Source: an uncultured Spirochaetaceae bacterium | GTDB taxonomy: Bacteria > Spirochaetota > Spirochaetia > UBA9216 | Reading direction: 5' to 3' | Assembly (NCBI GenBank): GCA_964472775.1 | Contig: CAYYNJ010000001.1 | Span: forward strand, 1 to 47,580 | Length of the DNA: 47,580 nucleotides | Shown: in pieces, positions 18,525 through 46,300 of the stretch | Numbering within the stretch: position 1 is the first letter of the stretch | How the letters are laid out: the number at the start of each line of letters is the position of its first letter | Position numbers and translations under genes: made by a program | Notes under the pieces: generated by a model | What the model was told of the DNA's origin: nothing | Database searches by the model: none | What the model saw: only the letters and a program-made list of their open reading frames with translations

Positions 18525-18553
18525 ATTATACTGGATGTAATACTATCTGACAA
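18525..18553 (-). promoter_or_regulatory. sigma70-type promoter of the GntR gene with a possible operator
   Basis: Minus strand: TTGTCA (18553-18548), 17-nt spacer, TATAAT (18530-18525). The spacer contains the palindrome GTAATAC, which fits a GntR-type GT-N-AC core. Confidence 0.45.
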
Positions 18554-18569
18554 TAAGCACATTGTTGAC

Positions 18570-18700
18570 CTGCCCGACCCGGGCTGGCGGAAGGGGTAAC
18601 CAGGGTGAATCGAAGATTCTCGAGGATGAGCACCCGGGCTCAAAAAAAATCGCCCGGGCACCCATCCTCTACATTTTCGATTTACCCCGCTGGCCGGGGC
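18570..18700. repeat. palindromic intergenic repeat, copy A
   Basis: Hairpin core 18607-18683: GAATCGAAGATTCTCGAGGATGAGCACCCGGGCTCAAAAAAAATCGCCCGGGCACCCATCCTCTACATTTTCGATTT. It shares a 16-nt identical block and collinear similarity with copies at 22352-22512 and 28713-28866. Confidence 0.6.
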
Positions 18701-18721
18701 GGCTCCAGCCCCGGCGGCCTT

Positions 18722-21297: not shown

Positions 21298-21352
21298 CCC
21301 TCGAAGACTTTCGGTTCAGCGCCTCCGGCGGAACCGAAAATATCCGCCGGTG
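21298..21352. repeat. degenerate partial copy of the palindromic repeat (copy D)
   Basis: CTCGAAGACTTTCGG...CCGGCGGAACCGAAAATATCCGCCGG resembles the CGAAGATTCTCGAGG...CCGGGCTCAAAAAAAATCGCCCGG core of copies A and B. Confidence 0.3.
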
Positions 21353-21360
21353 ACCGACAA

Positions 21361-21415
21361 AATTGTCCTGGCGGCCTCATTTTGACGAAGCTGAGGGTTA
21401 CGGTTTAAAAGGAAG
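21361..21415 (+). repeat. 55-nt direct repeat: isolated left arm of the hairpin element (copy C1)
   Basis: AATTGTCCTGGCGGCCTCATTTTGACGAAGCTGAGGGTTACGGTTTAAAAGGAAG matches 22348-22403 with 3 substitutions and 1 indel. Confidence 0.75.
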
Positions 21416-21466
21416 TTATGCACCCGCTTCGCAGGTAAAGAAGAAAACCTTTAAAAATTATATGTG

Positions 21467-21592
21467 GGCGCCTCAAAAAAACCAAATTGGGGTTTTTGAG
21501 GCGCCTTGGAGTTTATTTATTTCCTTTACAGGAAATAAATAAACATCCACTACATCTAAGGTAGACCTCTAAAAACGGCAGTTTTTAGAGGT
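21467..21592. other. three consecutive perfect-stem hairpins (terminator/insulator-like)
   Basis: H1 21467-21505 GGCGCCTCAAAAA...TTTTTGAGGCGCC. H2 21511-21545 GTTTATTTATTTCCT-TTAC-AGGAAATAAATAAAC. H3 21565-21592 ACCTCTAAAAAC-GGCA-GTTTTTAGAGGT. Confidence 0.5.
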
Positions 21593-21630
21593 TCCCATGT
21601 TTCATTCCCGTTAGGGTAAAAAGCAGATAC

Positions 21631-21698
21631 ACGTAACATTTGTAGAATACTATACGTAACTATTGATTTGTACGTGTATTTATTTTATATTGTTACGT
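21631..21698 (+). promoter_or_regulatory. cassette promoter with four ACGT-core boxes (candidate antitoxin operator)
   Basis: TTGATT (21663-21668), 17-nt spacer, TATATT (21686-21691). Boxes: ACGTAAC at 21631 and 21654, TACGTGTA at 21671, GTTACGT at 21692. Confidence 0.45.
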
Positions 21699-21708
21699 GG
21701 AGGGAGAT

Positions 21709-21951
21709 ATGAATAAGAAACTTACACTCAATATTGATGAATCAATTATTGATTTTGCAAAAACATATTCAAAAGTGAATAATCAATCGATTTCAAACAT
21801 CTTTGAAAAATATCTTATCAGATTAAAAGAAGAAACAAAGGAAATTAAAATTTCTGAAGAGGCAAGAGAATTATATGGAATAATCAGTAAAGATGAATTT
21901 CCCGATAAAAAAGAAATGAGAAAGAGATTTTATGAAAACAGTATTGATTGA
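21709..21951 (+). CDS. antitoxin (DUF6364/RHH-like, PIN-associated)
   Basis: MNKKLTLNIDESIIDFAKTYSKVNNQSISNIFEKYL resembles small antitoxins paired with PIN toxins. GGAGGGA lies 6 nt upstream of the ATG at 21709. It overlaps the toxin gene by 20 nt. Confidence 0.65.
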   Translation: MNKKLTLNIDESIIDFAKTYSKVNNQSISNIFEKYLIRLKEETKEIKISEEARELYGIISKDEFPDKKEMRKRFYENSID

Positions 21952-22342
21952 TTTAAATATTATTATTGATTTTCTGAATAAGCGAAATGATCATGAAGCA
22001 GCATTAGCTGTCTATGATAAATGTGTAAAAAAAGAAATAAAGGGGTATGTATGTTCCCATGAAATAACTACGTTATCGTATTTTTTAGAAAAACAAAAAT
22101 ATGAAAGAACAAAGAGAAATAAGATTATTTCCAACTTATTAGACAATTTAAGTGTGTTGACAGCACACGAAGAGATTTTAAGAAGGTCTTTATTCTCAGA
22201 TTTGGAAGATTATGAAGATGCTGTAATTGATGAATTGGCATTGAATGAAGAAATAGATTATATCGTTACAAGAAATTTGAAAGATTTTAAAAAATCCAGG
22301 AATAAAATTTATTCGGCCAGAGAAATACTGGATCTACTATAA
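21932..22342 (+). CDS. vapC: PIN-domain toxin (VapC-like ribonuclease)
   Basis: 136 aa. Acidic PIN residues in LIDLN (D7), SHEITT, DYEDAV and the C-terminal TRNLKDF. Confidence 0.8.
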   Translation: MKTVLIDLNIIIDFLNKRNDHEAALAVYDKCVKKEIKGYVCSHEITTLSYFLEKQKYERTKRNKIISNLLDNLSVLTAHEEILRRSLFSDLEDYEDAVIDELALNEEIDYIVTRNLKDFKKSRNKIYSAREILDLL

Positions 22343-22351
22343 GAAAGAATT

Positions 22352-22512
22352 GTCCTGGGGGCCTCATTTTGACGAAGCTGAGGGTTTCTGGTTTAAAACG
22401 AAGATGTAGAGGCGAAGGGGCGGCGCGATTTTCTTTGAGCGCCGCTGCTTCTCCTCGAGAATCTTCGTTTTACAGGGAAAAACCCTTCGTCAAAATGAGG
22501 CGGCCTGGGGAC
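22352..22512. repeat. 161-nt long-hairpin palindromic repeat element, full copy C2
   Basis: Stems: 22362-22377/22485-22500 (16 bp perfect), 22395-22405/22461-22471 (11 bp perfect), 22409-22417/22448-22456 (8 of 9), 22420-22426/22439-22445 (7 bp). Loop GATTTTCTTTGA. Confidence 0.8.
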
Positions 22513-22565
22513 CGAAAAGATAAAAGACTGGCCCCGCCCCCTCTTCCCTGTTACTATAAAGGGCC

Positions 22566-23774
22566 ATGAAGATCTTTTATTCCGCCGCCCTGGGGTTGGT
22601 CATACTTTTTCTTTTCTCTTGTGCCACCGGCGCCCCCTCCTCACGCCATCGGGAAGAGAATCCCCTGGAATCGGAGGATGTGGAAATCTCGCTGCCCCAC
22701 GCAACGGGGAGTCAGAGTTTTGAACCGGAAGGGCCTGATGAGGAGGAGGAAGAACCTCCACCGGCTTTGACCAAGGGGCTCTTGGTCGACACCGCCTTGG
22801 ATAGGCTCCCTCCCGGGCTCACTCCGGTTTTCAAGGATGACCAGCCCTGGGGCCTTTTTCATGATCTGGATAAAAACGGATACACCGATTACCTCCTGCT
22901 GGTTTTAGAGGAGGAAGTGGATCCGGGGCAGGCCCAATCCGGTTATCTTCAAGATAGCCTGAGGCTGTTCGATGAAGATTCTCCCTACCGCCCCTTCGGT
23001 TTGGTCATTTTTTATCAATATCCCGAGGATGTGATCAGCCGGTATCACATCTCCCTGGGCAAGAAACTGGTACTTCGGGATTTTGTCTTTCAAGAAATCC
23101 GTCTGGGCCGCGATTTCCCCTACACCGTGGTGGTTTCTTTTCAAACCTTGGAAGGCACCGAGGCGGAATGGGTCACCCTCCAGGGCCGGGGAATCAGCCG
23201 GTTATCCCTGGACTATACCTTGTCGAAGACCTCCCGGATCGGTGATGTCGACGGAGACGGATGGGTGGACATCCTTGTTTTTCAACAGGGCTTTGAGGAA
23301 GGCCGGGGTTATGAAACCTTTATCTCGTGGCTTCGTTGGAACGGTGAGGAGTACGCACCCCATAACCGAACCAACGTGATGCGGAACCTCCGGGATTTTT
23401 TCACCGCCGCCGAGGAAAAAATACCCGTTCTGGGGTGGGAACACTGTTTTGATCAGTGTCTCGAGGTTTCCCAGCTTTCGGAACTCCGTTCGGCGGGGAA
23501 GGCGGGGGAAGAGATCCTCTCCCGGTTTTTTCAGCCCTTGCCCGGGCAGGATGAGGTTCCGCCCCTTTACCGTATCGATCCGGCGGGGGTGGTTTTTCCC
23601 CGGGTTCTGGAGGATCCTTTTTCCTACAGCAGTCCCGTGCCTCTCCGTTTTTCGGTCATCGTGAAGGTACAAGACCGCGGCGGCACTTCCTTTTTTTATC
23701 AAGGGCTTTTAGGCATGTCGGATAATCCCTTCGGCGAAAATCAGTTTGCCTTTGCCATGCTGGAAGGCGATTAG
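22566..23774 (+). CDS. lipoprotein with an FG-GAP/VCBS-like motif, function unknown
   Basis: Signal peptide MKIFYSAALGLVILFLFSC with lipobox LFSC. GDVDGDGWVDILVF motif. Acidic linker after the Cys. Confidence 0.65.
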   Translation: MKIFYSAALGLVILFLFSCATGAPSSRHREENPLESEDVEISLPHATGSQSFEPEGPDEEEEEPPPALTKGLLVDTALDRLPPGLTPVFKDDQPWGLFHDLDKNGYTDYLLLVLEEEVDPGQAQSGYLQDSLRLFDEDSPYRPFGLVIFYQYPEDVISRYHISLGKKLVLRDFVFQEIRLGRDFPYTVVVSFQTLEGTEAEWVTLQGRGISRLSLDYTLSKTSRIGDVDGDGWVDILVFQQGFEEGRGYETFISWLRWNGEEYAPHNRTNVMRNLRDFFTAAEEKIPVLGWEHCFDQCLEVSQLSELRSAGKAGEEILSRFFQPLPGQDEVPPLYRIDPAGVVFPRVLEDPFSYSSPVPLRFSVIVKVQDRGGTSFFYQGLLGMSDNPFGENQFAFAMLEGD

Positions 23775-27697: not shown

Positions 27698-28673
27698 CCT
27701 CTTCCTCCCGGAATCGGCGGTTATAGGGGATGAAGAGAAGATCTATCAAGAGAAGCACCGCCCCCGCCGCCCCCAGGGCCAGGAATGGCAACAGGGGGAG
27801 GGGCAGTTGAAGCGGCAGGAGGGCCACGGCCTCTTCGGCTAATTCACTGGAAAATACCCTGTAGATTGATCCGGACAGCCGGAGAAGAAGGAATACCGCG
27901 AAAAGGTTAAACAGGTTCCAGCGGCTGATCCGGATGAACCCCCAGCAGCTCACCAGGTAAAAAGCCGCGGCTGTCAGGGCCGTCAGCATACTAAGCCCGG
28001 GGGTAATGGTTTTAAGCCCCTCACCGAGAGCCAGAAAGTCGGTTAAAAACGGCCGGTCCTTTTCAGGATTGCCGTAGGAGTAGCCCCTCTCAAACGGGAG
28101 GGATAGCTCTCCGCTTCCGGCCCCGCCGGTTAGACTGAGAAAGTCGGGGGAAATGGTCCCTGCCTGAAAGTAGTGGAGCCGGAAATCAGGACTTGTCAGG
28201 GGGATGAGAACCTCTTGAAGCTCGTCTCCTTCACCAGCCTCTGCAAGAACCGGAACCAGGCCGCCCTGGAGGGGGATTTTCTGAATTCCTTCGGAGCGCC
28301 AGAGGATGGTCTGAGTTTCCTCCAGGCAGGACTCACGGTTTAACCGGGGAATAAACCGGGTACCCCCCAGAAGGACCAGAAAAACAGCGGTGAAGAGGAA
28401 AATAAAGGTGAGAACCCGAATCCCCCCCCGCTTACGCAGGCGGACGATGGTGAGAAACAATCCCAGCGACACAATTAAGGGCATGTGATGCGGAAGACTG
28501 ATAACCATCTGCCGGATCAAACAGGAGAGGGAAAAGTCGCCTCCCGCCGCTCCCACCGATGCCGCCGTTTCCATGCCGATGAAAAAACATACCAGCAAAA
28601 GAAATATGAGACTGAAGAAAAGGAAAAAAAGAGGGGCCAGTAGGGAATTTTTCATCTGGTAAAATCCTATCAC
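27690..28673 (-). CDS. integral membrane protein, 3+3 TM topology (LptF/LptG-like, tentative)
   Basis: 327 aa. Three N-terminal and three C-terminal hydrophobic segments flank a ~130-aa soluble domain. Confidence 0.4.
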   Translation of the reverse strand: MIGFYQMKNSLLAPLFFLFFSLIFLLLVCFFIGMETAASVGAAGGDFSLSCLIRQMVISLPHHMPLIVSLGLFLTIVRLRKRGGIRVLTFIFLFTAVFLVLLGGTRFIPRLNRESCLEETQTILWRSEGIQKIPLQGGLVPVLAEAGEGDELQEVLIPLTSPDFRLHYFQAGTISPDFLSLTGGAGSGELSLPFERGYSYGNPEKDRPFLTDFLALGEGLKTITPGLSMLTALTAAAFYLVSCWGFIRISRWNLFNLFAVFLLLRLSGSIYRVFSSELAEEAVALLPLQLPLPLLPFLALGAAGAVLLLIDLLFIPYNRRFREEEDA

Positions 28674-28712
28674 GGGCCCTAAGGGAATGCAAGCATTCCT
28701 TATTCATCTGTT

Positions 28713-28866
28713 AAGGGTCCTTTTGGCGAAACGGCGCCCTCTGGTGAACGAATCCTTCCGAGGAAGACCCTCCGGGCTCAGGAAAAATCGCCCGGAGGGT
28801 CCTCCTCTGCGTCTTCGTTCGCCCCTGGAACGGCTCACCAAAAGGGCCCTCCTCTGCGTCTTCATT
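28713..28866. repeat. palindromic intergenic repeat, copy B, with a partial tandem duplication of its right arm
   Basis: Central hairpin GACCCTCCGGGC-TCAGGAAAAATC-GCCCGGAGGGTC. Arms GAACGAA/TTCGTTC and GGGTCCTTTTGG/CCAAAAGGGCCC. 20-nt repeat GGG(T/C)CCTCCTCTGCGTCTTC at 28797 and 28844. Confidence 0.65.
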
Positions 28867-30460
28867 TCTCCAGGCTGGCTTTAATGAAGCTGGAGAAAAG
28901 GGGGTGGGGCTTCAGGGGCCGGCTGGTGAACTCGGGGTGGAATTGAACCCCCGTACTCCAACGGTGCTTAGGCCACTGCACCGATTCCACCAGACCGTTT
29001 CCAGGCGTTACCGCGGAGATAATCAGGCCCGCTTCTTCCAGTATGTCCCTGTATTTAACCGATACTTCGTAGCGGTGCCGGTGTCGTTCATGGATCAGGG
29101 GTTTTCCGTAGCTTTCCCGGATTAAGGTGCCGTCTTTCAGATGAGTTTCCCCTTTTCCCAGTCTCATGGTGCCGCCGAAGTCTTTCACATCTTCCTGTTC
29201 TTCCAAAAGGCTCACCACGGGGGCGGGTGATTCGGGGTGGAATTCGGTACTGTTGGCCCCCTCTAATTCCGCCACATTCCGGGCGTATTCAATGACCATA
29301 ATCTGCATACCCAGACATATGCCCAGGAGAGGAATGTTGTTGATTCTGGCGTATTCGGCGGATCGGATCATCCCTTCGATGCCCCGCTTACCGAAGCCTC
29401 CGGGGATCAGAATACCGTCGATGTCTTGGAAGACCTCGGCCAGGTTTTCCTGGCTTTCCAGTTCTTCCGCATCTACCCGGATGATTTCTACCCGGCACTT
29501 GTTGGCGATGCCGGCATGAAAAAGTGCTTCGTTCACCGATTTGTAGGAGTCCGCCAGGTTGATGTATTTTCCTACCATGGCGATTCGGGCGGTGGTTTGG
29601 GCGGTGAGAAAGGTGTTGACCATTTTCTCCCAGTTGGAGATATTCGCCTTGCCCGGGGTAAGGGACAGTTTTTGGAAAATGATTTCATGAAGGCCCTGTT
29701 TCAGGTAGATCAGGGGGATTTCATAGATGGTGGTATCCACGTCATAGGCGGAGATGATGGAGTTGCGGTTTACATTGGTGAAGAGGGCGATCTTCTTCTT
29801 CATGTCTTCGTCCAGCTCGCTGGGGGCACGGCAGAGGAGAATATCGGGTTGGATTCCGATCTCCCGCAGTTCCTTCACCGAGTGCTGGGTGGGTTTGGTT
29901 TTCAGCTCCTCTCCGGCCACTAGGGGCACCAGGGTGAGGTGAACGAATAAAACGTGATCTTCCCCTATGTCATGAAGAAACTGCCGGGCCGCTTCGAGGA
30001 AGGGCACTGATTCTATATCCCCCACCGTACCGCCCACTTCAATTATGGTTACTTCCGCCGCATTTTCGTCGGCGGCGTGGACGATGCGCCGTTTGATTTC
30101 ATCGGTGATGTGGGGAATCATCTGCACCGTCCGGCCCAGATACTTTCCTTCCCTCTCTCGTTGGATCACTTCCTGGTAGATCTGGCCGGTGGTGATGGTA
30201 TTCCTTCGTCCCACCGGTGAACTGGTGAACCGGAAGTAGTTTCCCAGGTCCAGGTCGGTTTCGGCCCCGTCGTCGGTGACGTAGACTTCCCCGTGTTGGT
30301 AGGGACTCATGGTCCCGGCATCCACATTCAGATAAGGGTCAATTTTGACCATACACACCTTAACCCCGTGCCCTTCCAAAAGGGCACCGATAGATGCCGC
30401 TGCCAGCCCCTTTCCGAGGCTCGAGCAAACACCGCCTGTGACAAAAATGTATTTCTTCAT
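28862..30460 (-). CDS. pyrG: CTP synthase
   Basis: 532 aa. MKKYIFVTGGVCSSLGKG start. Glutaminase GICLGMQ and HRHRYEV motifs. Confidence 0.97.
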   Translation of the reverse strand: MKKYIFVTGGVCSSLGKGLAAASIGALLEGHGVKVCMVKIDPYLNVDAGTMSPYQHGEVYVTDDGAETDLDLGNYFRFTSSPVGRRNTITTGQIYQEVIQREREGKYLGRTVQMIPHITDEIKRRIVHAADENAAEVTIIEVGGTVGDIESVPFLEAARQFLHDIGEDHVLFVHLTLVPLVAGEELKTKPTQHSVKELREIGIQPDILLCRAPSELDEDMKKKIALFTNVNRNSIISAYDVDTTIYEIPLIYLKQGLHEIIFQKLSLTPGKANISNWEKMVNTFLTAQTTARIAMVGKYINLADSYKSVNEALFHAGIANKCRVEIIRVDAEELESQENLAEVFQDIDGILIPGGFGKRGIEGMIRSAEYARINNIPLLGICLGMQIMVIEYARNVAELEGANSTEFHPESPAPVVSLLEEQEDVKDFGGTMRLGKGETHLKDGTLIRESYGKPLIHERHRHRYEVSVKYRDILEEAGLIISAVTPGNGLVESVQWPKHRWSTGVQFHPEFTSRPLKPHPLFSSFIKASLEK

Positions 30461-36969: not shown

Positions 36970-37121
36970 CCTTTATATATCTTTTTTACTGATAATATGG
37001 TATATTCCACAGGTAAAGCTTCTCTCAATCTGAAAAAAATACCGATAAGACTAAAGTAGAACTATCTCGTTAAAAATACTTTTTGGCGCCGCGGTATTGG
37101 TGGGCTTCTAGGGGGGATCGG

Positions 37122-40100
37122 TTGAGAAAGATTTTTTTGACATGGCTGTTGGTGAGTTCTCTCTGTGTTTTAGGCGCCCAGGATGCCCCGGAAACCCCGG
37201 CAAGCGGGGCGGCGGATTCCCTTTTGCAGACGTACCACCCTGTGGAGGGGCTTTATCAATGGCAGAAATCCCTGGATGTCTCGGGCCTCAAACCGGGTAC
37301 CTATAACATCGTTGTGACCGGCGAGGATACCGCCGGTAATACCTTTGAAACCGCGGCGGTGGATATCCGTATCGATCCTGAGTCGGACAAACCCCTTAGT
37401 TCCATAACCTATCCTTCCTCCCGAATGAGAATTGCCGGAGATCTGTCGGTTCTAGGCAGTGCTAAGGATGACGACCAGGTGGCCCATGTGGATGTGCGTC
37501 TGGGGCAGGGTGAGTACATCAGGGCTGGGGGGACCGATTTCTGGTCCGCGGATTTTTCTACCCAAGCCTTGGAGGATGGGGTCTATGATTTAACCTGCCG
37601 GGCCACGGATATCAACGGAATAGCCGGAGATGAATACACCTTGTCATTCATCCTAGACCGCAGGGCTCCCCAAATAGCGGTAACCTCTCATGAAAACGGA
37701 GGCCTGGTCAGCGGAAAATTTAACATTGAAGGCTCTGTTCGGGACACCAACGGCCTGAGCCGGGTGGATTTTTCCTACGATCAAGGCCAAAACTGGAATT
37801 CCGCCGATCTCAAGGGAGGAGGAAAGGACCAGGATCGGAAGTTCACTTTCCCCCTGGACAGCCGGGAAATGGCCGACGGACCCCGGGTTATCCTGATAAG
37901 AGGTACGGATCAGCAGGGATCCAGCGCCAATTTGGCCCTCCTGCTCTACCTGGACAATACCAAACCGGAACTGGAAATCGTCTACCCCGCCGCCGAAGAG
38001 CCGGAAAACGGCCGTTTCCAGGTCATGGGGCGCGCCACCGATGAAACCGGGGTGGCCCGGTTGAGCTGGGCTTACAAGGGGGAAGAATCTAGGGAGATTC
38101 CCCTGGAACCGGGCAATCCCTATTGGGCCATCGACGTGGACTATACGGGGCAGAAAAAGATGGCCTTGGAGTTTCTCCTCACCGATGTGGCGGACAATAC
38201 CCGCCGGGTGGTGCTGGAGCGGGATCTGTCCTGGCAGGAAGATCTGCCGCGGATAGAATTGCTTCATCCCCGGGAAGGGGTGCCCACCGACGACCCCCGG
38301 TTAATGGGCTGGGTCTTGGACGACGACGGCCCCGGGGGGGTGGTCTATCAAATCGGTAAAACCCCGGAGGTTCGACAGGAGGGGGGGCGCCGTTTCACCC
38401 TTGATCTGCCCGGCCTTCCCCCGGGGGAACATCAGATTACCCTGCGGGCCCTGGACCGGTACGGTGTGGAGGGGGATCCCCAGGTCCTCACGGTTTCCCT
38501 TCTTCCTCGGGAGCCCCAGGTGTCTCTCGACGGCTTCTACACCTCCGGGGATGAAACCCTGGCCTTCAAGCCGGGAATCCGGATCAGATCTAATCAGCAC
38601 CGGGGGTTTTACGGCACCGTACATTTTGACAGTGGTAAGGGCAGTGTAGCGGTTTTTTCCCCCGACGGATCCGAACGGGAACTCTCCCTGGAAAAAACTG
38701 ATCAAGCCGGTACGTTCCGTTTTACGGCGCCCTTTTCCGAACCTGTTTCCTTCGGGTTCTACCCCTTGAAACTGGTGGCCCGGGACGGCCTGGGGAGCGA
38801 AGTTACCCGGGTATTCCCCTTCTGGATGGAGGATCTTACCGTTAATCTCACGCCCTTCGGTTTTTCCCTCTCCGGTCAGGAAGAGGTGGTTTTTCATGAC
38901 CGGGCGGTGGGTTGGGATTTTCGTTTCGTGGGGCATCCTTTAAAGGATTGGGAAATTCCCGGCAAGCCGGACTTCCTGGAGCTTGAGGTTCGGGGAGAAC
39001 GATTAACCCTGAATGCCTCGGGGCCGGGCCGGGTGAGGGGCCTTTCGATTCAGGGAACCACCGACCGGGGCACCCTTTTCACCGCCCCGCTGCCTCCCGT
39101 TTTGGCGGATTTTGCTCCCCCGGAGTTAATCCTGGAGACTCCGCCGGCGGTGGAAAATCTTTCGGGGATGGTTAGGCTCTCCGGATCGGTTAAGGATGAC
39201 CTTGGTCCCGTGACTCTTTTTTCGTCCCTGGATGGGGGAGAGCTGAAGCCTCTTAACACCGGAGTCTCCCCGGAACCGGGAGAACCTCAGGAATTCACCC
39301 TGACCGTACCGGCGGACAGCTTAAAGGTCACCGGTTCGATTCTTAGGGTGTCGGCCCGGGATGTTTCCGGTAAGGAGTCTTCTTCCTACCTGGTTCTTTC
39401 CCGCCGGGCTGCGGAAGGGGAATCGGTAAAGCCGTCCCTGACGGGTTTTGTCGGAGGTACCGAAGGGGGGATTCTCCGGGGCGACCTTATGGACGGCGGG
39501 ATTTTTCTGGGGGCCCGGGCGGCGGGGGTGGATTCTCTTTCCACCCTGACCTACCAGCTCGACGGCGATAACCCCCGGCCCCTGGCTTTCTCGGCAGGCC
39601 TGCCGCAGGAAACGATCCTTCTGCCGTCTCCCGGAGCCCATCAGATTGTTTTCCGGGCCGGATATGGTGAGGGGAAAACGCTGACAGCGACGGTTAAATT
39701 TACCGTGGCCGGGGGAGCTCCTGTCTTTTTCTTCCCCGAGGTTTACTCCGGCCAGGATGTGGTAAGAAAATCCGGCATGGGGCTGAAGATAGGCTGGGCC
39801 GGTCCCGCGGAGCCGGAGGTTTTTGAGTGCCGGGTGGACGGTGAATTGATCGATACTCCCAGGTATGTTCAGGAAGGGGACCGGGGAATTTTTTCTCTGC
39901 CCCTGGAAGATCTGTCCTACGGGCCCCATACCCTGGAGGTCCACGGGAAGGATGACTTCGGCCGGGAAGCGGCGGGAAAGATCCATTTTTATCTCTTAGA
40001 AGATCCGGCAGGAAGACACCGGGACAGTGAGCCGGGGCTCTACATCCTGGAAGAGGCGGTAGGAGATTATGCCTACCTGTTTCAGGGAAGAGAAATCGTA

Positions 40101-43052
40101 TCGGCGGAACTGGATCCAAGGGAAGGGAACTTTGCTGTTGACCGGGACGGGGCCATCCTGAGGATCCGGGGGGGAGAGCCGGAAAGGAGTGAAAACCGGA
40201 CGGTTGTGGTGACCACCGAAGACCAAGAGGTGTTTCGTCTGGAAGGAAGAACCTTTACCTCCGATGTCACCCCTCCCGTGTTGACCCTGGAGCCGGGATC
40301 CGCCGACCCCTATGTGGGATCGGAAATAAACCTGACGGGAACACTCCAAGATGATCTGGCCCTGGACCGGCTGGAGTACAGCCTCTCCGGATCTTCCTTC
40401 ACCGCCCTGCCTTTTTCCCGGACCCCAGATACGGGGGATATTCAGGAAGAGGAGGACGAAGCCGAACCGTTGGTGCGGGAAGACCCGGCGGATGGATCCT
40501 TTTGGGCCGCCATCGATCTTCGGGGAGTAGCCGACGGCCCCCTGTCCCTGACCGTCCGGGCCAGGGATACCTCGGGGAATGAGACGGTGGTGGAACGGCT
40601 TTTAGTGAAAGACACCCTGCCGCCCCGGCTCAAGCAGATCCTGCCGGATCCGGCGGAGGACATCAATGGGCGGACGTCCCTCTTTTTCCGGGTGGATGAT
40701 GCCTGGGGTGAAGACTTTTCCGGATCTTTCACTTTGGGAGAGACGGAAACCCCGGTGGAAGCCCGGGACGGTTTTATCCGCCTGGGACCGGACTTCTCGC
40801 CCTATCAGGAGCTTCCCGAGCTTTTCGATCTCAAAGTGAAGGATAGCGGCACTAATCTGGTAAGTCAGAGACCCTCGGTATCTTTTGAGCCCGCGGCGGA
40901 CAAGCCGGTGGTGGCTATTCAATTTCCCCAGGCCGACGCACTTTTCCAGGAAGACCCTCTGTTCAGCGGTACCGTCCGTGACGATGACGGAGTGAAGGAA
41001 ATTCAGTACCGGGTGGATGGAGGAGATTTCCTATCCCTTCCCGGAGCGGGGCGGTTCGAGATCCGTCTGCCCTTTTCCTCCCTGGGGGATAACGGCCATG
41101 AAATCGAGGTGGTGGCTTACGATCTAGAGGGTGTGCCCAGCGATCCTTTGATCCTCCCCTTCCGGATCTCCCGGGAAGTTCCCGAGGCGGCCCTGATGGC
41201 CCCCGAACTGGGAACCACCAACCGGGGGGAGGTTGTTTTGACGGGAACCGCTGGGGACGCCAACGGTATTTCCGCGGTGTTTCTCTCATTGGACAACGGC
41301 AACAGCTACCACCTGGCGGAAGGCCGGGAGGCTTGGTCCTATCCCTTGAATTCCCGGGTCCTGGTGGACGGAACCTACATGATTCTCATCAAAGCCCTGG
41401 ATGGCTACGGGGTGGAATCGTTGTCTTCGGGACTCCTTACGGTGGATAATACCGCCCCCTACATGAATGCTTCCCAGCCCGTGGACGGGGTGGTGGTTTC
41501 CGACTTTCTTTCCCTGCAATTACGGACCACCGATGAACTATCGGTCCGGCGGCTCCGTTACGTCATCACCCCCCTGGAGACACCCCTCCCTGAACCAGAG
41601 TCCGGCGGGGGCGGGGCTGACCTTGCGGAAGCCGCCGAAGCCGGGTCTGCGGCGGGGGAGAAACCGGTCCTTACGGGAGAACTTCCGGTGAGCCGGGTGG
41701 TCCTGGAACAGATTGATGTGACGGCCCTGGAGCCGGGTCTCTATAATTTCAGTGTTTTTGCCTACGACGCCGCCGCCAATGAGTCGATCATCTCCCGGGA
41801 TTTTGAAAAGCAGGAACCCGGCGTGGCCAACAGGATAGATCTTCTCTATCCCCTGACCGGCGCTACCCTAACCGCAGGCTTCGGCCTCTCCGGCCGCGTC
41901 AGCGGTGATGACATCCCCGGGCAAGTGGAAATTTTTATGGACGGCCGGCTCTTTGACCGGGTGGAGGTAAAAGCCGACGGTTTCTTTACCCGCCGGATGG
42001 AACCGGAAGAAATGACAGAAGGTTCCCGCAGCTTGTCGGCCCGTTTTACCGACTCCCAGGGGACGGTTCTTGAAAGCCGGCCGGTTACGATGGAATACCG
42101 CACCGAAGGCCCCTGGGTGAGCATCGATTCGGTCAGTACCGGTTCCTATGTGAGCAATAGGCCCTGGATCCGCGGTACCGCCGGTTATTCCGCGGCGGAC
42201 CCAGAGGAGGGCCGGCGGGAAAACCGGGACCTGCTGAAGTCCCGGGAGCTGGTGAAGCTTGAGTACAGCCTGGATAACGGGCGAAACTTTTCCGAGATGA
42301 AAGCCCGGGAAGAATGGCGGTTTAGGCTGGAGACCCAGGATCTCCCCGACGGTCCCTTAAGCATCCTGGTACGGGGGGAATTCCGGAATGGGGAAAAGGC
42401 GGTCTCCCAGGCCTTTGTCTTTGCCGATGATACACCGCCCCGGATCACCCTGCTCACCCCCGACGAAGGTTCCGCCTTGAACCAGGAGCTGGAAATCAGC
42501 GGTACCGCCGAGGACGAAAACGGCCTGCGCCAGATTCAGGTGATGCTGCGGGCCAAGAGCAAGAGCAGCTATGAGGTTCCCCAGTTCATCCAGGGGCTGT
42601 TTCTGGATACCCACTTTCTGGGGGCTACCTATTATGAACTCGGGTTGGGGCTGACCTTCTTTGACAACAACGTGAAGATCCAGGGAATTTTTGGGAAGGC
42701 CCCTCCCGGGCGGTTCAACGGGAATGTTTTCGGCGTCAAACTTCTGGCCAATGTCGCGACCCTGCCCTATGGGTACTTCTTCGGCCCGGACTGGAACTTT
42801 CTCTCCTCCAGCGTCGCCTTAGGGGCGGCCTTTGAGTACTTCACCATGACCGAGGGGGATACTGAAGAAAACGGCCTGGTTTTAGGGGCGGCGATTCTTC
42901 AGCTGGAGCTGCTGAAGTTCTCCCTGGATCACCGGACCTTCCTCAACGGTTTGAGTGCCTATCTGGAAAATCAGTTCTGGTTCATTTCTTCGGATATTCA
43001 GGGAGGCATCGAGTACCGCCTGGCCCTGGGGCTGAGGGCCAACATTTTCTAG
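37122..43052 (+). CDS. giant secreted surface protein: at least ten Ig-like (Big-type) repeats plus a C-terminal beta-barrel-like anchor
   Basis: The TTG at 37122 follows GGGGGGA and gives signal peptide MRKIFLTWLLVSSLCVLGA-QD. The ORF track starts at 37083. Recurrent module D..(P)P.I.......G..VSG...L.G...DD.G...V..S.D.G..W. The last ~190 aa alternate hydrophobic/polar residues and end RANIF. Confidence 0.75.
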   Translation: MRKIFLTWLLVSSLCVLGAQDAPETPASGAADSLLQTYHPVEGLYQWQKSLDVSGLKPGTYNIVVTGEDTAGNTFETAAVDIRIDPESDKPLSSITYPSSRMRIAGDLSVLGSAKDDDQVAHVDVRLGQGEYIRAGGTDFWSADFSTQALEDGVYDLTCRATDINGIAGDEYTLSFILDRRAPQIAVTSHENGGLVSGKFNIEGSVRDTNGLSRVDFSYDQGQNWNSADLKGGGKDQDRKFTFPLDSREMADGPRVILIRGTDQQGSSANLALLLYLDNTKPELEIVYPAAEEPENGRFQVMGRATDETGVARLSWAYKGEESREIPLEPGNPYWAIDVDYTGQKKMALEFLLTDVADNTRRVVLERDLSWQEDLPRIELLHPREGVPTDDPRLMGWVLDDDGPGGVVYQIGKTPEVRQEGGRRFTLDLPGLPPGEHQITLRALDRYGVEGDPQVLTVSLLPREPQVSLDGFYTSGDETLAFKPGIRIRSNQHRGFYGTVHFDSGKGSVAVFSPDGSERELSLEKTDQAGTFRFTAPFSEPVSFGFYPLKLVARDGLGSEVTRVFPFWMEDLTVNLTPFGFSLSGQEEVVFHDRAVGWDFRFVGHPLKDWEIPGKPDFLELEVRGERLTLNASGPGRVRGLSIQGTTDRGTLFTAPLPPVLADFAPPELILETPPAVENLSGMVRLSGSVKDDLGPVTLFSSLDGGELKPLNTGVSPEPGEPQEFTLTVPADSLKVTGSILRVSARDVSGKESSSYLVLSRRAAEGESVKPSLTGFVGGTEGGILRGDLMDGGIFLGARAAGVDSLSTLTYQLDGDNPRPLAFSAGLPQETILLPSPGAHQIVFRAGYGEGKTLTATVKFTVAGGAPVFFFPEVYSGQDVVRKSGMGLKIGWAGPAEPEVFECRVDGELIDTPRYVQEGDRGIFSLPLEDLSYGPHTLEVHGKDDFGREAAGKIHFYLLEDPAGRHRDSEPGLYILEEAVGDYAYLFQGREIVSAELDPREGNFAVDRDGAILRIRGGEPERSENRTVVVTTEDQEVFRLEGRTFTSDVTPPVLTLEPGSADPYVGSEINLTGTLQDDLALDRLEYSLSGSSFTALPFSRTPDTGDIQEEEDEAEPLVREDPADGSFWAAIDLRGVADGPLSLTVRARDTSGNETVVERLLVKDTLPPRLKQILPDPAEDINGRTSLFFRVDDAWGEDFSGSFTLGETETPVEARDGFIRLGPDFSPYQELPELFDLKVKDSGTNLVSQRPSVSFEPAADKPVVAIQFPQADALFQEDPLFSGTVRDDDGVKEIQYRVDGGDFLSLPGAGRFEIRLPFSSLGDNGHEIEVVAYDLEGVPSDPLILPFRISREVPEAALMAPELGTTNRGEVVLTGTAGDANGISAVFLSLDNGNSYHLAEGREAWSYPLNSRVLVDGTYMILIKALDGYGVESLSSGLLTVDNTAPYMNASQPVDGVVVSDFLSLQLRTTDELSVRRLRYVITPLETPLPEPESGGGGADLAEAAEAGSAAGEKPVLTGELPVSRVVLEQIDVTALEPGLYNFSVFAYDAAANESIISRDFEKQEPGVANRIDLLYPLTGATLTAGFGLSGRVSGDDIPGQVEIFMDGRLFDRVEVKADGFFTRRMEPEEMTEGSRSLSARFTDSQGTVLESRPVTMEYRTEGPWVSIDSVSTGSYVSNRPWIRGTAGYSAADPEEGRRENRDLLKSRELVKLEYSLDNGRNFSEMKAREEWRFRLETQDLPDGPLSILVRGEFRNGEKAVSQAFVFADDTPPRITLLTPDEGSALNQELEISGTAEDENGLRQIQVMLRAKSKSSYEVPQFIQGLFLDTHFLGATYYELGLGLTFFDNNVKIQGIFGKAPPGRFNGNVFGVKLLANVATLPYGYFFGPDWNFLSSSVALGAAFEYFTMTEGDTEENGLVLGAAILQLELLKFSLDHRTFLNGLSAYLENQFWFISSDIQGGIEYRLALGLRANIF

Positions 43053-43231
43053 CCCAGAGCGTGCCGGAGGGCACCGGACCGGTTCGCCGTACCGGTCGAG
43101 TTTTACCGGGGAATGCGACGGCGGGGTCGAATGATTTTTACGGCCAGCCCTGAAGAGGGCTGAAAGCGGCGGAAACAGAGGGTTTTTACCCGGATTCGGG
43201 AGAATCGGCGCCGGAATAGCCCAGGCTAATT

Positions 43232-43246
43232 TGGCATGGTTTTTGC
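43232..43246 (+). promoter_or_regulatory. sigma54 (RpoN)-type -24/-12 promoter
   Basis: TTGGCATGGTTTTTGCG against consensus YTGGCACGrNNNTTGCW. The GG and GC elements have the correct 12-nt register. Lies 94 nt upstream of the ATG at 43340. Confidence 0.5.
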
Positions 43247-43251
43247 GTAAT

Positions 43252-43316
43252 GGTTGTGTTTGTGTCTCTTATTTTGTTTAAGGCTCAAGGTTGTGTTTCG
43301 ATTGTTTGTTTTAAGG
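43252..43316 (+). repeat. GT-rich imperfect tandem repeat in the 5' leader of the giant lipoprotein gene
   Basis: GGTTGTGTTTGTGTCTCTTATTTTGTTTAAGG (43252-43283) and GGTTGTGTTTCGATTGTTTGTTTTAAGG (43289-43316). Confidence 0.5.
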
Positions 43317-43339
43317 CGGAAATCCGCCACGGGGGAAAT

Positions 43340-46300
43340 ATGATGCAGAGAAAGATCGCTGATAGATTTCGCTTAACCGCCCTGGGGGTGTTACTCCTGT
43401 TGGTGACGAACTGTGATCTGTTTATGCCCGGTCTGGGGGATGAGGTGGATATCGATGTTCCCCAGATTGAGGTGGAGAGCCACCGAAACGGCGACTATGT
43501 GTTCGGCCAATTTACCCTCACCGGCCGGGTGGAGGATGATTATGAGGTCAGCGAGGTCACCGTCAGCGATGGCGACACCTCTATCACCGCCGTTTTAGAC
43601 GGTGATTTATGGTCTGCCCAGATTAACTCATCTCCCCTCGGCGACGGGGACCGGGATTATCAGATTACGGTTACCGATGCCACGGGGAAAAAATCCAGCA
43701 TCAACCTCCTCCTCACCGTGGACAACAATCCCCCCACGGTCTTGGTTAATGTTCCCGATTCCTACCTGCCTCCGGCGGAGTACAACAAGGTGATCACCCT
43801 TAAAGGCGAAGCCGCCGATACCACCCGCATCAAGGAGGTCCTGGTATCGTTGTACGATAATGCCACGGGAACCGCCATCTTTGAAGATGAGGCGGCCACG
43901 GGAACCTCAAGCTGGTATTATAGTTTCGATTCCGAGGCCCTGGGAAACCTGAACGGAACTTACTATCTGGTGGTTGAAGCTTTCGACAACGCCGGAAACA
44001 GCAACGGCTGGTTTTACCACTTCAGCGATATTCTCTCCAGCGCTTCCAACCCCGGGGATCTTCCCAACATTGAAGACATCAACGGCTTTGAGTCTCAGGG
44101 AGGATTCCTCCCCGGGACCCTGACGGTTCCCTTGAGCAGCCTTCGGCGTTCCGCCGCCTCAGGCGCCAGGATGACCCTCTCCATCAATCCCGATTCGGAC
44201 CGGCCCCAGTTCATCTTCATTTCCCCCAGTGTGACGGGGGAGAATCCCTTCGCTTCCCCGCAGCGGTTCAGCGGTTTTATCGAAGATGACGACGGTCTGG
44301 TGAAGACGGACCAAACGGAGATAGCGATTTATGAATACACCGGAGATTACGATGATGCCGATCCGGTTCTTCTCCCCGACGGTTCCGGCGGGTATGATGA
44401 GTGGGTTTCCTACGGCCTGGAAATCAATTCCACCCAGTGGACCTATGAAGCCGACCTGCCCAGCGGCAAAGAATACTATCTGCGGCTGAAGGCGGAAGAC
44501 ATCAACGGCCTCTCCAATACCTCTATCCCGGTAAAATTTTCGATTCCCGAAGGGGTGCCCAATCTGAGTGTGTTAACCCCTCAGCAGGGCCGGTATACGG
44601 GGATCGGCGGAACCCTCGGCTTCGAGGTGAAGGTCGAGGACATGAGCGGCAGCCTGTATATCGATCTGACCCCCGGCGTTCCGGCGGATTCCTGGAGTGA
44701 TGCCCTAGAGTATTCCCCGGTGCAGCTCTTCGACCATTTTCTGCGCACCGAGGCTGACGGAGAGGTCTACGGGTTTTCGTTCACCGCCGGTGATGATTTT
44801 ACTCTGGAGGATGGCCCGGGAAGTTTCCGGTTCCGGGCGGGGGTGGAAGGAGCCTTCGGCCAAACCACCTGGCAGTACATCGGGGATACCCAGGCCCCCC
44901 ATATCTCCCTTACCTACCCCAACGCTTTCAGCACCGCCGCCGATGCGGTAAACGGGACCATCAAAATCAGCGGATCCGCCGATGACGGATTGAATCCCCT
45001 GGAAGGGGTGTATCTATCTCTGGAACCGGGGTGGCAGGATCCCGAACCGGCCCCCGCCGACCTTACCTCCTGGTATGTGCCCACGGGGCTTTCCAGCTGG
45101 ACCAGTGCCGATATGGACACCACCGATACGGCCCTCTTTTCCGACGGGGACGGAGACTATACCCTGCGGTATTTTGTCAAAGACGCGGCGGGCAATTTCA
45201 GTGATCCGGCGGTCCGGCATATCAGGGTGGACCAGAGTTCCGATTTCCCCGTTTTTACCTTCTCTAACCTGGATCCCCTAGCCGCCGCCTCTGTCAACAT
45301 TCTCGGCAGCGGTGCGGCCCTCTTTTCTACCCTGGAGGATGATGATGCGGTGGATGTGTCTACCCTGGAAATCAGGATAGATGTGTTCGGCGACGGCCTT
45401 TCGGGGGTCGATTTGACTTCCGACGGGGATACCCTTGATGCCAACGAGAGCGAAGGTTGGCAGCCCGCGGCCAACAAACCCGAGACGGACAGCCGTATGG
45501 TCAACTGGAACCATCCTCTGACCAACCTGCCCCAGGGAGTTCACAGCTTCGAGGTGCGGGTGGAAGATGTGTACGGCACCGCTAAAGCGGTGGGTCCGGT
45601 TTTTTTCACCATCGACACGGGTCCTCCGGAGTTAACCGTCACGGCTCCCCTGGACAACAGTTTTTTGAATGAGTCTTTTACCGTTTCCGGCAGCGCCGGC
45701 GATGCGAACAGTATCGAAGCGGTGCGGCTCTATCTTGCCCGGGAGGATGGGGCTCTGGAGGAAATCCCCGGTGATCAAATCGTCCTGAGTACGGCGCTGC
45801 CCGCTCCTTCGGTCAACTGGAGCTATGAATTCGCCGTGGATACCGCAGGTCACGGGGACGACGGCGATTACCTCGTCCATGTCCAAGCCGATGACACCAC
45901 CACCGGAGTGAATAAAACCTCGGATACCAGCTGGACTTTTACTATCGATACCAGTTCTCCCGAGCTTCTCGTCACCGCCCCGGTGAGTGATGAACTGATC
46001 GACGGAGACAGCAATCCCTACACCCTCAGCGGTCAGGTGAGCGATACCGGAGCGGGGGTGAAAACCCTGGCATACAGCCAGGACTACACCGATGACGGCG
46101 ACGATACCAACGATACCTGGCACGCCATTCCCTACGGAGGCGGGTTGAGATGGAGCGTCCCGGGGGTAGATTTTTCCGGCAGCGAGGGACTTAAAAGACT
46201 CTTCGTCCGGGCCGGCGACGGGCTGAATGCTCCCGCCCAGGCGGAGGTGGGTTTTTACTTTGACCTTTCCGCCCCGGATCTTTCAGAAACCGCCGCCCCG

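What the first reader, a model, noticed from the sequence alone, without database searches (positions are those of the whole stretch)
22352..22512. Previously unrecognised family of long palindromic (MITE/REP-like) hairpin elements
Positions 22352-22512 fold into an almost continuous hairpin. The stems are CCTCATTTTGACGAAG (22362-22377) with CTTCGTCAAAATGAGG (22485-22500), 16 bp; AAAACGAAGAT (22395-22405) with ATCTTCGTTTT (22461-22471), 11 bp; GAGGCGAAG with CTTCTCCTC, 8 of 9; and GCGGCGC with GCGCCGC, 7 bp. They close a 12-nt loop, GATTTTCTTTGA. The reverse complement is collinear with elements at 18570-18700 and 28713-28866. All three share the layout CGAA..TTC.GAGGA, then a GC-rich stem, then CTCA(R)(R)(R)AAAATCGC, then a GC-rich stem, then CCTCT.C.T.TTCG.T. 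One block, CGAAGATTCTCGAGGA, is identical over 16 nt (18611-18626 matches the complement of 22452-22467). For the three full copies, the U-rich version of the loop lies on the sense strand of the flanking genes. All three sit in intergenic DNA next to gene 3' ends. That placement would fit an RNA-level role such as 3' stabiliser or terminator, a mobile MITE, or both. I do not recognise it as any named repeat family (REP/BIME, ERIC, Correia, BOX, RUP).
Basis: seen in the sequence. Interest (0 to 1): 0.65.

Follow-up and report, generated by a model that had tools for sequence, protein, structure and literature searches.

The report
New promoter-hugging MITE family in spirochaetes
The long hairpin is one copy of a previously undescribed small mobile DNA element (a MITE) from an uncultured spirochaete lineage, and most copies sit at one exact distance upstream of ordinary gene promoters.

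Summary
Window 22350-22507 folds into a ~150-nt hairpin (-93.8 kcal/mol, z = -9), and 18571-18693 and 28709-28849 are collinear copies on the other strand.

The element is a non-autonomous DNA transposon (MITE).
- 30 more copies lie on about 22 contigs of one metagenome, which includes a relative syntenic with the window at ~80% nt identity. One further copy is in a second metagenome.
- Full-length copies are ~290 nt: an upstream hairpin (unit 1) followed by the finding's hairpin (unit 2).
- They have ~24-bp terminal inverted repeats (CAGCAATTCCAATTTTGATGAAGG) and 9-bp target-site duplications, perfect in 7 copies.
- Two clean filled/empty site pairs were found.
- The element has no conserved ORF, no Rfam match and no match in the literature searched. 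No transposase was found.

The main surprise is placement. The 3' tip lies exactly 17 bp (9-bp duplication plus 8 bp) upstream of a TTGACA-N17-TATAAT promoter in 12 of 32 copies. Every other offset holds two or fewer. Orientation is fixed, and element-free relatives keep the same promoters.

The anchor is therefore the downstream promoter, not the upstream gene's 3' end. A terminator or 3'-stabiliser role is not supported. Stem pairing is kept by compensatory changes.

The parts
22350..22507 (+). E2: unit-2 hairpin copy of the MITE (the finding). Linker ttgtcctggggg, left arm, core, right arm and 3' terminus ...GGCGGCCTG.
   Evidence: Fold -93.8 kcal/mol, z = -9. CM score 92 bits. Arms identical to the L027 copies.
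22427..22438 (+). 12-nt apical loop GATTTTCTTTGA, U-rich on the sense strand. GAUU...UGA is conserved in all copies, including L034, which was found by the covariance model rather than by the pattern.
   Evidence: Conservation among the metagenome copies is partly imposed by the search pattern.
22485..22507 (+). 3' terminal inverted repeat of E2 (CTTCGTCAAAATGAGGCGGCCTG). Its complement carries the -35-like TTGACG motif.
22362..22377 (+). Left outer arm of E2 (CCTCATTTTGACGAAG), an internal TIR-like copy.
18571..18693 (-). E1: core plus right arm of a unit-2 hairpin. The left outer arm is replaced by a GC-rich hairpin. Orthologous to the L010 9458-9553 copy in the relative.
18525..18553 (-). 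Promoter of the GntR-family gene: TTGTCA (18553-18548), 17-nt spacer, TATAAT (18530-18525). The -35 hexamer starts at +18 from the E1 3' tip.
28709..28849 (-). E3: unit-2 hairpin copy immediately after the pyrG stop codon. Orthologous copies are in L008 (relative) and L034 (strain with 97% aa-identical pyrG).
28850..28866 (-). Partial arm (GAAGACGCAGAGGAG), the start of a former tandem copy that is still intact in L008. It overlaps the pyrG stop codon.
28664..28692 (-). Promoter TTGCAT-N17-TAGGAT of the gene whose ATG is at 28655(-). It starts at +17 from the E3 tip and is conserved in element-free relatives L032 and L033.
21300..21415 (+). Degenerate unit-1 module (TTTCGGTTC...GAACCGAAAATATCC...) plus a second copy of the unit-2 left arm (21363-21415). 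This is the 5' part of the element that E2 belongs to, split off by the TA insertion.
21416..22349 (+). Foreign AT-rich segment (29% GC) carrying a DUF6364 antitoxin-like gene (21697-21951) and a PIN toxin gene (21932-22342), inserted into the element and flanked by a 54-nt direct repeat.
22549..22557 (+). Extended -10 (TGTTACTAT) of the leaderless-type gene starting at 22566, about 45 nt from the E2 tip.
   Evidence: Read from the sequence. Conserved in L008. Not called by the consensus scan.

Best explanation
The hairpin is one copy of a multi-copy, non-coding, non-autonomous DNA transposon (MITE) family found in a narrow clade of uncultured Spirochaetota.

Anatomy. The full-length element is ~290 nt (~345 nt with an optional 60-nt insert) and consists of two consecutive long hairpins.
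- Unit 1 has arms CCAGTTTTGGCGTTTT / AAAACGCCAAAACTGG around a small perfect palindrome.
- Unit 2 is the finding's hairpin.
- The element is bounded by ~24-bp terminal inverted repeats, 5'-CAGCAATTCCARTTTTGRYG ... CATCAAAATTGGAATTGCTG-3'.

Mechanism. Inferred: a DDE-type transposase supplied in trans recognises these ends, makes cuts staggered by 9 bp in the target, and so leaves the observed 9-bp duplications. Shown: insertion is strongly site- and orientation-selective. The unit-2 end lands 8 bp upstream of a -35 hexamer, so tip, 9-bp duplication, 8 bp and TTGACA follow in that order. Inferred: the transposase reads a TTGAC-like motif that it also reads in its own ends (TTGAYG at positions 15-20 from each tip), or it reads promoter-bound RNA polymerase.

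After insertion, copies decay by internal deletion, by recombination between tandem copies, and by capture of foreign DNA, as with the TA cassette in E2.

Hairpin pairing is kept by compensatory changes. This could reflect a structural requirement of the element or of its read-through RNA, or it could come from quasi-palindrome template switching.
For: Copy number and distribution: 30 exact-pattern copies on 25 stretches of one metagenome, plus L034 from another metagenome and 3 in the window.

Extent: the repeat unit runs -189 (or -245) to +100 around the core, and nothing longer is repeated.

TIRs.

Target-site duplications: the 9-bp duplication abuts both ends, 9/9 identical in L007, L011, L016, L021, L022, L023 and L028, 8/9 in L006, L018 and L030, and 7/9 in L009, L020 and L024.

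Filled/empty pairs:
- L024 5249-5535 is filled, while window ~3925 is empty with a single GCAGCAT.
- L018 is filled, while L045 and L047 are empty at the parB/tRNA-Ser junction and the covariance model finds nothing there.

Relatives with 80% aa-identical pyrG have no copy within +/-10 kb.

Non-coding: no conserved ORF.

Structure: 94% of stem cells are paired, 17 of 32 pairs change on both sides, and 0 of 500 shuffles reach this. Orthologous E3 copies differ by compensated pairs. The full element folds at -126.9 kcal/mol, z = -11.

Promoter anchoring:
- TTGAC at +18..+22 and TAtAnT at +41..+46 in 9-12 of 14 copies of the dominant subfamily.
- In the offset histogram, 12 of 32 copies fall at +18 and no other offset holds more than 2.
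- The same promoters are present in element-free relatives.
- The downstream gene is co-oriented in 26 of 32 copies.
Against: No autonomous partner was found. There is no transposase in the window or next to TIR-like hits in the held loci, and collection scans were exhausted before a TIR search could be run.

The three window copies themselves are degraded and show no clean duplication of their own. E1 lacks its left arm, E2 is split by the TA cassette, and E3 is a deletion derivative.

All but one of the outside copies come from one metagenome, and they were ascertained with an exact pattern. Conservation of GAGG, GCGATT, TGAGC and TCCTC among them is therefore partly imposed.

The mechanism behind the fixed offset is inferred, not shown.
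Confidence: 0.85

Rival explanations
1. The element is primarily a host cis-acting RNA element, conserved by selection rather than spread by transposition. It would act as a 3'-UTR stabiliser, a terminator, or an insulator that protects the downstream promoter from read-through.
For: The sense strand folds better than the antisense strand (-93.8 vs -83.0 kcal/mol). There are three conserved G.U/U.G pairs, with 104 G.U cells against 11 A.C cells. Compensatory changes occur, including between orthologous copies. The loop is conserved. Many copies begin 0-40 nt after a co-oriented stop codon with no terminator in between. The L019 copy lies between a stop codon and its terminator.
Against: TIRs, 9-bp duplications and filled/empty sites show that spread is by transposition. 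Outside the four inherited majority-wobble columns the G.U excess is only 20 vs 10. Seven copies lie between divergent genes, and the upstream gene is co-oriented in only 20 of 29. There is no U-tract and no sense-strand terminator call. Quasi-palindrome template switching can create compensated changes without selection (established knowledge). This reading can still hold as a secondary, exapted role.
Confidence: 0.1
2. The elements are REP/REPIN-type palindromes moved by a RAYT (IS200/IS605-like Y1) enzyme through single-stranded DNA.
For: A GTAG tetranucleotide (GCAG in E3) sits directly 5' of the apical stem in most copies. The location is intergenic, tandem arrangements occur, and stem mismatches are strand-asymmetric.
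Against: REP/RAYT and IS200/IS605 transposition leaves no target-site duplication and uses subterminal hairpins. Here 9-bp duplications abut true terminal inverted repeats. The unit is 150-290 nt, not 20-40 nt. No RAYT gene was seen in the window.
Confidence: 0.03
3. The hairpin is an integron attC-like recombination site at the 3' end of a gene cassette, namely the TA pair upstream of E2.
For: A small foreign TA cassette ends 8 nt before E2. attC sites are imperfect palindromes of similar size in a fixed orientation (established knowledge).
Against: There are no RYYYAAC/GTTRRRY core sites in E1-E3 and no integrase in the window. The internal sequence is highly conserved, unlike attC. The other copies flank housekeeping genes and carry TIRs and duplications. 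The TA cassette is flanked by a 54-nt direct repeat of element sequence, which fits homologous (Campbell-type) integration into a pre-existing element.
Confidence: 0.01

Closest known systems
Bacterial MITEs that fold into long hairpins (Coxiella QMITE1/2, Neisseria Correia/NEMIS, Acinetobacter MITEAba12)
   Same: Small, non-coding and multi-copy, with TIRs of 20-30 bp, short direct repeats and an intergenic location near gene starts. The transcript is predicted to form a very stable hairpin. QMITE2 has 7-9 bp direct repeats, 23-29 bp TIRs and a ΔG value of -113.09 (printed as cal/mol in the figure legend), and MITEAba12 has a 9-bp duplication (review PMC10969869; PMC6382973 listed).
   Different: There is no sequence similarity to anything searched. 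The architecture is two hairpins. In those families promoters lie inside the MITE, whereas here the promoter is host DNA at a fixed 17-bp distance outside the tip and the orientation is fixed. The host is an uncultured spirochaete. The parent IS is unknown.
REP / REPIN elements with RAYT transposases
   Same: Intergenic palindromes, often in tandem or inverted pairs, with a GTAG tag next to a GC-rich stem (PMC3733652, listed).
   Different: REPs are 20-40 nt, leave no duplication and depend on a Y1 enzyme. These elements have TIRs and 9-bp duplications.
ERIC/IRU and RUP/BOX-type enterobacterial and pneumococcal repeats
   Same: Imperfect palindromes of ~100-150 nt in transcribed intergenic DNA, with effects on mRNA proposed (own knowledge).
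   Different: Different sequence and host. No defined 9-bp duplication and no fixed promoter offset is described for them (own knowledge; not tested here).
Position-specific integration next to transcription machinery (yeast Ty3, Dictyostelium TRE5-A) and IR-targeting by IS30/IS3-family transposases
   Same: Works alike: insertion at a fixed distance and orientation from a promoter landmark, or next to a sequence resembling the element's own end (own knowledge). Here the geometry is right TIR, 3 bp, then a pseudo-left-TIR carrying TTGAC.
   Different: Those are eukaryotic retroelements, or IS families with 2-4 bp duplications. No membership is claimed and no protein was identified here.

Membership tests
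MITE (non-autonomous DNA transposon) | Small size and no coding capacity | tested here: met
   Size classes of 150-345 nt. No ORF is conserved between copies.
MITE (non-autonomous DNA transposon) | Terminal inverted repeats | tested here: met
   5' CAGCAATTC(C/G)ARTTTTGRYG and 3' CATCAAAATTGGAATTGCTG, with 0-3 mismatches to the 24-mer consensus at the right ends.
MITE (non-autonomous DNA transposon) | Target-site duplication of constant length | tested here: met
   9 bp. It is 9/9 identical in 7 copies, 8/9 in 3 and 7/9 in 3, always abutting both tips.
MITE (non-autonomous DNA transposon) | Many dispersed copies and insertion polymorphism | tested here: met
   34 copies at about 30 independent sites. 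Filled/empty pairs are L024 vs the window and L018 vs L045/L047.
MITE (non-autonomous DNA transposon) | Cognate autonomous IS with the same ends | not testable with these tools
   None in the window or the held loci.
REP/REPIN-RAYT | No target duplication; 20-40 nt palindrome with a GTAG/CGTC tag; linked RAYT gene | tested here: not met
   9-bp duplications are present and the unit is 150-290 nt. GTAG lies next to the apical stem, but no RAYT was seen.
Integron attC site | R''/R' core sites RYYYAAC...GTTRRRY at the base of the hairpin; nearby IntI | tested here: not met
   Neither motif occurs in E1-E3. There is no integrase in the window.
Intrinsic (Rho-independent) terminator | GC-rich stem-loop followed directly by a U-tract on the sense strand | tested here: not met
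   No sense-strand terminator-like site at E1, E2 or E3. The tails read AAUUGGAAUUGCUG or GGCGGCCUG.
Any Rfam RNA family | Covariance-model match at or near the gathering score | tested here: not met
   0 matches at gathering thresholds in the window. Only sub-threshold noise at E <= 1.
IS200/IS605-derived PATE | Subterminal hairpins, insertion 3' of a fixed tetra- or pentanucleotide, no duplication | tested here: not met
   The duplicated 9-mers are variable, and the inverted repeats are terminal rather than subterminal.

The most novel reading that the evidence does not exclude
Insertion is actively targeted. The transposition machinery would use the -35 hexamer, or sigma70-RNA polymerase bound to the promoter, as a ruler, placing the element 8 bp upstream of -35 (tip at about -53) in one orientation. 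That would make this a bacterial DNA transposon anchored to promoters, analogous in logic to Ty3 and TRE5-A. A corollary is that repeated hits at the same landmark would explain the head-to-tail arrays at three loci.
Probability: 0.55. Interest if true: 0.75.

Novelty: new member of a known kind. Interest (0 to 1): 0.55.

Why it matters
The result adds a defined MITE family, with its ends, duplication length, size classes and decay routes, to a phylum in which the literature search found no comparable MITE family.

It also explains why contigs of this lineage break at particular intergenic sites.

More importantly, it provides a natural data set in which a bacterial transposon lands at single-base precision relative to sigma70 promoters that existed before the insertion. 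If that precision reflects targeting, it is a way for a mobile element to colonise a compact genome without breaking genes. It would also give a handle for studying how transposases read promoter DNA or polymerase-bound DNA, and it would be a potential source of insulating or regulatory modules upstream of many genes.

Finally, the E2 locus shows a foreign toxin-antitoxin cassette entering the chromosome through homology with a MITE.

Tried and rejected
1. A genome-contig scan with the strict core pattern gave only 5 hits, in Pseudomonas and Rhizomicrobium. They score 12-15 bits with the covariance model against 55-110 bits for real copies, so they are chance matches, and the lineage is absent from that species-representative set.
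2. Exact-protein look-ups of two window proteins (the 22566-23774 ORF product and pyrG) found nothing on record.
3. Viral contigs gave 0 core-pattern hits. Ten single hits to a 17-nt TIR word were judged to be chance and were not followed. A plasmid blastn search gave nothing.
4. The covariance-model search of all held DNA found no diverged extra copies, only antisense echoes. One right-half-only copy (L019 7060-7136) was found by TIR search instead.
5. In the search for the parent IS, the two TIR-like words outside known copies sit next to CNNM/CorC and phosphorylase genes, not transposases.
6. A lone TIR-like word in L010 lies inside a coding region and is chance.
7. My first crude ORF-based orientation count was unreliable, so I replaced it with codon-scored gene calls.
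8. A coding reading of the open frame through L021 and L016 was rejected because the frames are not conserved between copies.
9. The attC, terminator, REP and PATE readings were rejected (see the membership tests).
10. The idea that the promoter is part of the element was rejected. The duplications lie between the tip and -35, the spacers are unrelated between copies, and empty sites keep the promoter.

Full report
OBSERVATION

The sequence at 22352-22512 is as described. On the + strand it folds into one nearly continuous hairpin of -93.8 kcal/mol. Dinucleotide shuffles give -55.7 +/- 4.3, so z = -9.0 and none of 200 shuffles folds as well. The complementary strand folds less well, at -83.0 kcal/mol. 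The repeat finder returns the outer arms (22354-22377 / 22485-22508) and the perfect 12-bp stem (22394-22405 / 22461-22472).

The stretches at 18550-18720 and 28700-28880, read on the minus strand, align collinearly with it and fold with z = -5.2 and -5.6. The core pattern GCGATTTT-N3-TGAGC-N11-TCCTCG occurs exactly three times in the window and zero times in 100 shuffles. In all three copies the U-rich loop is on the sense strand of both flanking genes.

A FAMILY BEYOND THE WINDOW

The window's lineage is missing from the species-representative genome set. The strict pattern gave five hits there, in Pseudomonas and Rhizomicrobium, which score only 12-15 bits with the later covariance model.

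A looser pattern (GAGG-N12-GCGATT-N5-TGAGC-N11-TCCTC) found 30 matches on 25 stretches of metagenome contigs, all from one sample, Ga0334882. Three of these stretches (L008, L010, L024) are syntenic with the window at 77-86% nucleotide identity, so that sample holds a related species. Contig Ga0334882_1000227 carries both window-like copies and copies of the most common subfamily, so that subfamily lives in the same genome.

Best named pyrG and parB homologues are from Spirochaetales/Spirochaetia MAGs. A strain with 97% aa-identical pyrG, from a second metagenome (L034), has a copy at the E3 site. Three relatives at ~80% aa identity have none within +/-10 kb.

ANATOMY

All-against-all comparison shows that the repeated unit runs from about -189 (or -245 with an optional 60-nt insert) to +100 relative to the 48-nt core. 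Nothing longer is repeated.

The full element (~290 nt) folds into two consecutive hairpins at -126.9 kcal/mol, z = -11.3.
- Unit 1 is closed by CCAGTTTTGGCGTTTT / AAAACGCCAAAACTGG and holds a small perfect palindrome, TTTTTGATCCAACAG-aca-CTGTTGGATCAAAAA.
- Unit 2 is the hairpin of the finding.

The ends are inverted repeats: 5'-CAGCAATTC(C/G)ARTTTTGRYG and CATCAAAATTGGAATTGCTG-3'. The left arm of unit 2 is a third, internal copy of the same motif.

Subfamilies differ in their outer arms: CCAATTTTGATGAAGG (dominant), CCTCATTTTGACGAAG (E2 and L027) and CCCTTTTGGTGAGCC (E3 and L008). No reading frame is conserved.

IT IS A TRANSPOSON

A 9-bp direct repeat abuts both tips.
- 9/9 identical in L007, L011, L016, L021, L022, L023 and L028.
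- 8/9 in L006, L018 and L030.
- 7/9 in L009, L020 and L024.

Two clean filled/empty comparisons exist.
1. The relative has a 288-bp element at L024 5249-5535. The window at ~3925 has an uninterrupted site with a single GCAGCAT.
2. Between parB and a tRNA-Ser gene, L018 carries an element flanked by GGAAACCGG / TGAAACCGG. L045 (ParB 93% identical) and L047 (80% identical) have no element, and the covariance model finds nothing there.

These features are terminal inverted repeats, a constant-length duplication, many dispersed copies, insertion polymorphism and no coding capacity. Together they define a MITE. No transposase was found in the window or beside stray TIR-like words, so the autonomous partner and its IS family remain unknown.

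STRUCTURE CONSERVATION

On a gap-free alignment of 31 cores, 94% of stem cells form standard pairs. 17 of 32 pairs show changes on both sides, no shuffle out of 500 reaches the observed values, and sliding the partner by 1-3 columns drops pairing to 40-47%.

Orthologous E3 copies differ by compensated pairs. The window has GGACCCT/AGGGTCT, L034 has TGACAAT/ATTGTTA, and L008 is intermediate.

G.U cells outnumber A.C cells 104 to 11. Nearly all of this comes from four inherited columns; outside them the count is 20 to 10. The strand bias is therefore weak evidence for an RNA role. Quasi-palindrome template switching could also produce compensated changes (established knowledge).

The invariance of GAGG, GCGATT, TGAGC and TCCTC among the metagenome copies is partly imposed by the search pattern. 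However, the covariance model found no deviating copies in 294 kb.

PLACEMENT

This is the unexpected part. Measured from the 3' tip in the dominant subfamily, positions +18 to +22 read TTGAC in 10, 9, 10, 7 and 9 of 14 copies. Positions +41 to +46 read TAtAnT in 11, 12, 9, 10, (not conserved) and 11 of 14. The 17 nt before the first hexamer and the 17 nt between the hexamers carry no information.

Scanning every offset in all 32 distinct copies, a sigma70-like site starts at +18 in 12 copies. No other offset has more than 2. E1 is one of the 12, with TTGTCA-N17-TATAAT at 18553-18525. E3 has TTGCAT-N17-TAGGAT at +17.

The arrangement is therefore tip, 9-bp duplication, 8 bp, -35 hexamer. These are real promoters, because start codons, ribosome-binding sites or tRNA 5' ends follow the -10 at plausible and varied distances.

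The promoters also predate the insertion.
- The tRNA-Ser promoter is intact in the empty sites of L045 and L047.
- The E3 promoter is intact in element-free L032 and L033.
- L032 has GAAAAGAA 6 nt upstream of its -35, which matches the duplication GAAAAAGAA.

On the other side, the distance to the upstream stop codon varies from 0 to about 20 nt. The downstream gene is co-oriented in 26 of 32 copies and the upstream gene in 20 of 29. Seven copies lie between divergent genes.

Tolerance of insertions only in the short gap between stop codon and promoter cannot explain a single-base peak. Either the insertion is targeted, or an exact phasing is selected afterwards. One clue favours targeting: each TIR carries a -35-like TTGAYG at positions 15-20 from its tip (TTGACG in several subfamilies). 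The target therefore looks like a right end followed 3 bp later by a pseudo-left-end. The bases after the target hexamer are weakly enriched for AAG, as in the TIR (7, 7 and 6 of 14). Guidance by promoter-bound polymerase is the alternative. Neither was tested.

THE THREE WINDOW COPIES

All three are decayed.
- E1 keeps the core and right arm only. Its orthologue in the relative is part of a tandem pair.
- E3 is a deletion derivative of a tandem pair that is intact in L008. The partial arm at 28850-28864 is what remains of the first copy, and L034 shows a different collapse of the same pair.
- E2 belongs to an element whose unit-1 remnant and left arm lie at 21300-21415. A 934-bp segment of 29% GC (the window is 56% GC), carrying a DUF6364/PIN toxin-antitoxin pair, sits between two 54-nt copies of the left arm that differ at four positions. 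This is the signature of integration by homology with the element. The relative has only a ~67-nt remnant at this locus.

E2's position next to a gene's 3' end is thus secondary.

COMPARISON WITH KNOWN FAMILIES

Rfam gives nothing at gathering thresholds and only noise at E <= 1. There are no plasmid or viral matches. Literature searches returned bacterial MITE families with internal promoters, IHF sites and hairpin transcripts, but no spirochaete family like this and no fixed host-promoter offset.

The attC core sites are absent. No sense-strand intrinsic terminator is present. REP/RAYT and IS200/IS605-type mechanisms are contradicted by the duplications.

VERDICT

The element is a new MITE family, which is a known kind of element. 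Its unusual and well-supported property is insertion at one exact position and in one orientation upstream of pre-existing sigma70-type promoters. The mechanism of that placement and the identity of the transposase are open.

Noticed in passing
window 21416-22349 (genes 21697-21951 and 21932-22342): A foreign segment of 29% GC with a DUF6364/PIN toxin-antitoxin pair is inserted inside a MITE. It is flanked by 54-nt direct repeats of the element's left arm (21363-21416 and 22350-22404; 4 differences). This looks like Campbell-type integration through MITE homology. The relative lacks it.
   Followed up: partly
window 21467-21505 and 21511-21544: Two near-perfect palindromes (GGCGCCTCAAAAAAACCAA/TTGGGGTTTTTGAGGCGCC, and a 15-bp perfect inverted repeat) lie at the left edge of the AT-rich TA segment. 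They may be a bidirectional terminator and an operator.
   Followed up: no
L027 6025-6490; L008 8850-9330; L010 9380-9789: Head-to-tail arrays occur at three loci. Each is a 5'-truncated copy whose 3' TIR directly abuts the 5' TIR of a full copy, with no duplication between them. This is reminiscent of IS-dimer junctions or repeated hits at one landmark.
   Followed up: partly
L019 7060-7136 (+): A right-half-only copy of the hairpin lies upstream of htpG. Both the exact pattern and the covariance model missed it, so copy counts are underestimates.
   Followed up: partly
window 22552-22566; 28655-28669; L030 and L022 downstream genes: Several genes start only 6-10 nt after their -10 box, which suggests leaderless mRNAs. 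Stop-codon-to-(-35) distances are 7-25 nt, so intergenic spacing in this lineage is extremely compact.
   Followed up: no
L011, L017, L018 (about -245 to -185 from the core): An optional ~60-nt insert with its own small hairpin (GGAGTAATTTGCATGGCAAATTACTCC) lies between unit 1 and unit 2 in three copies. It defines a longer size class.
   Followed up: no
window 37083-47578: Two very large ORFs (1989 aa, and more than 1442 aa running off the window end) are rich in bacterial Ig-like domains. They are probably surface proteins.
   Followed up: no
L045, L046, L047 and L034 (contigs of 1.3-3.4 kb): Contigs of this lineage in other assemblies are very short. L034 carries a copy of the element. L045 and L047 carry none and instead hold clustered tRNA genes downstream of parB. 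Whether repeats cause the short contigs was not tested.
   Followed up: no
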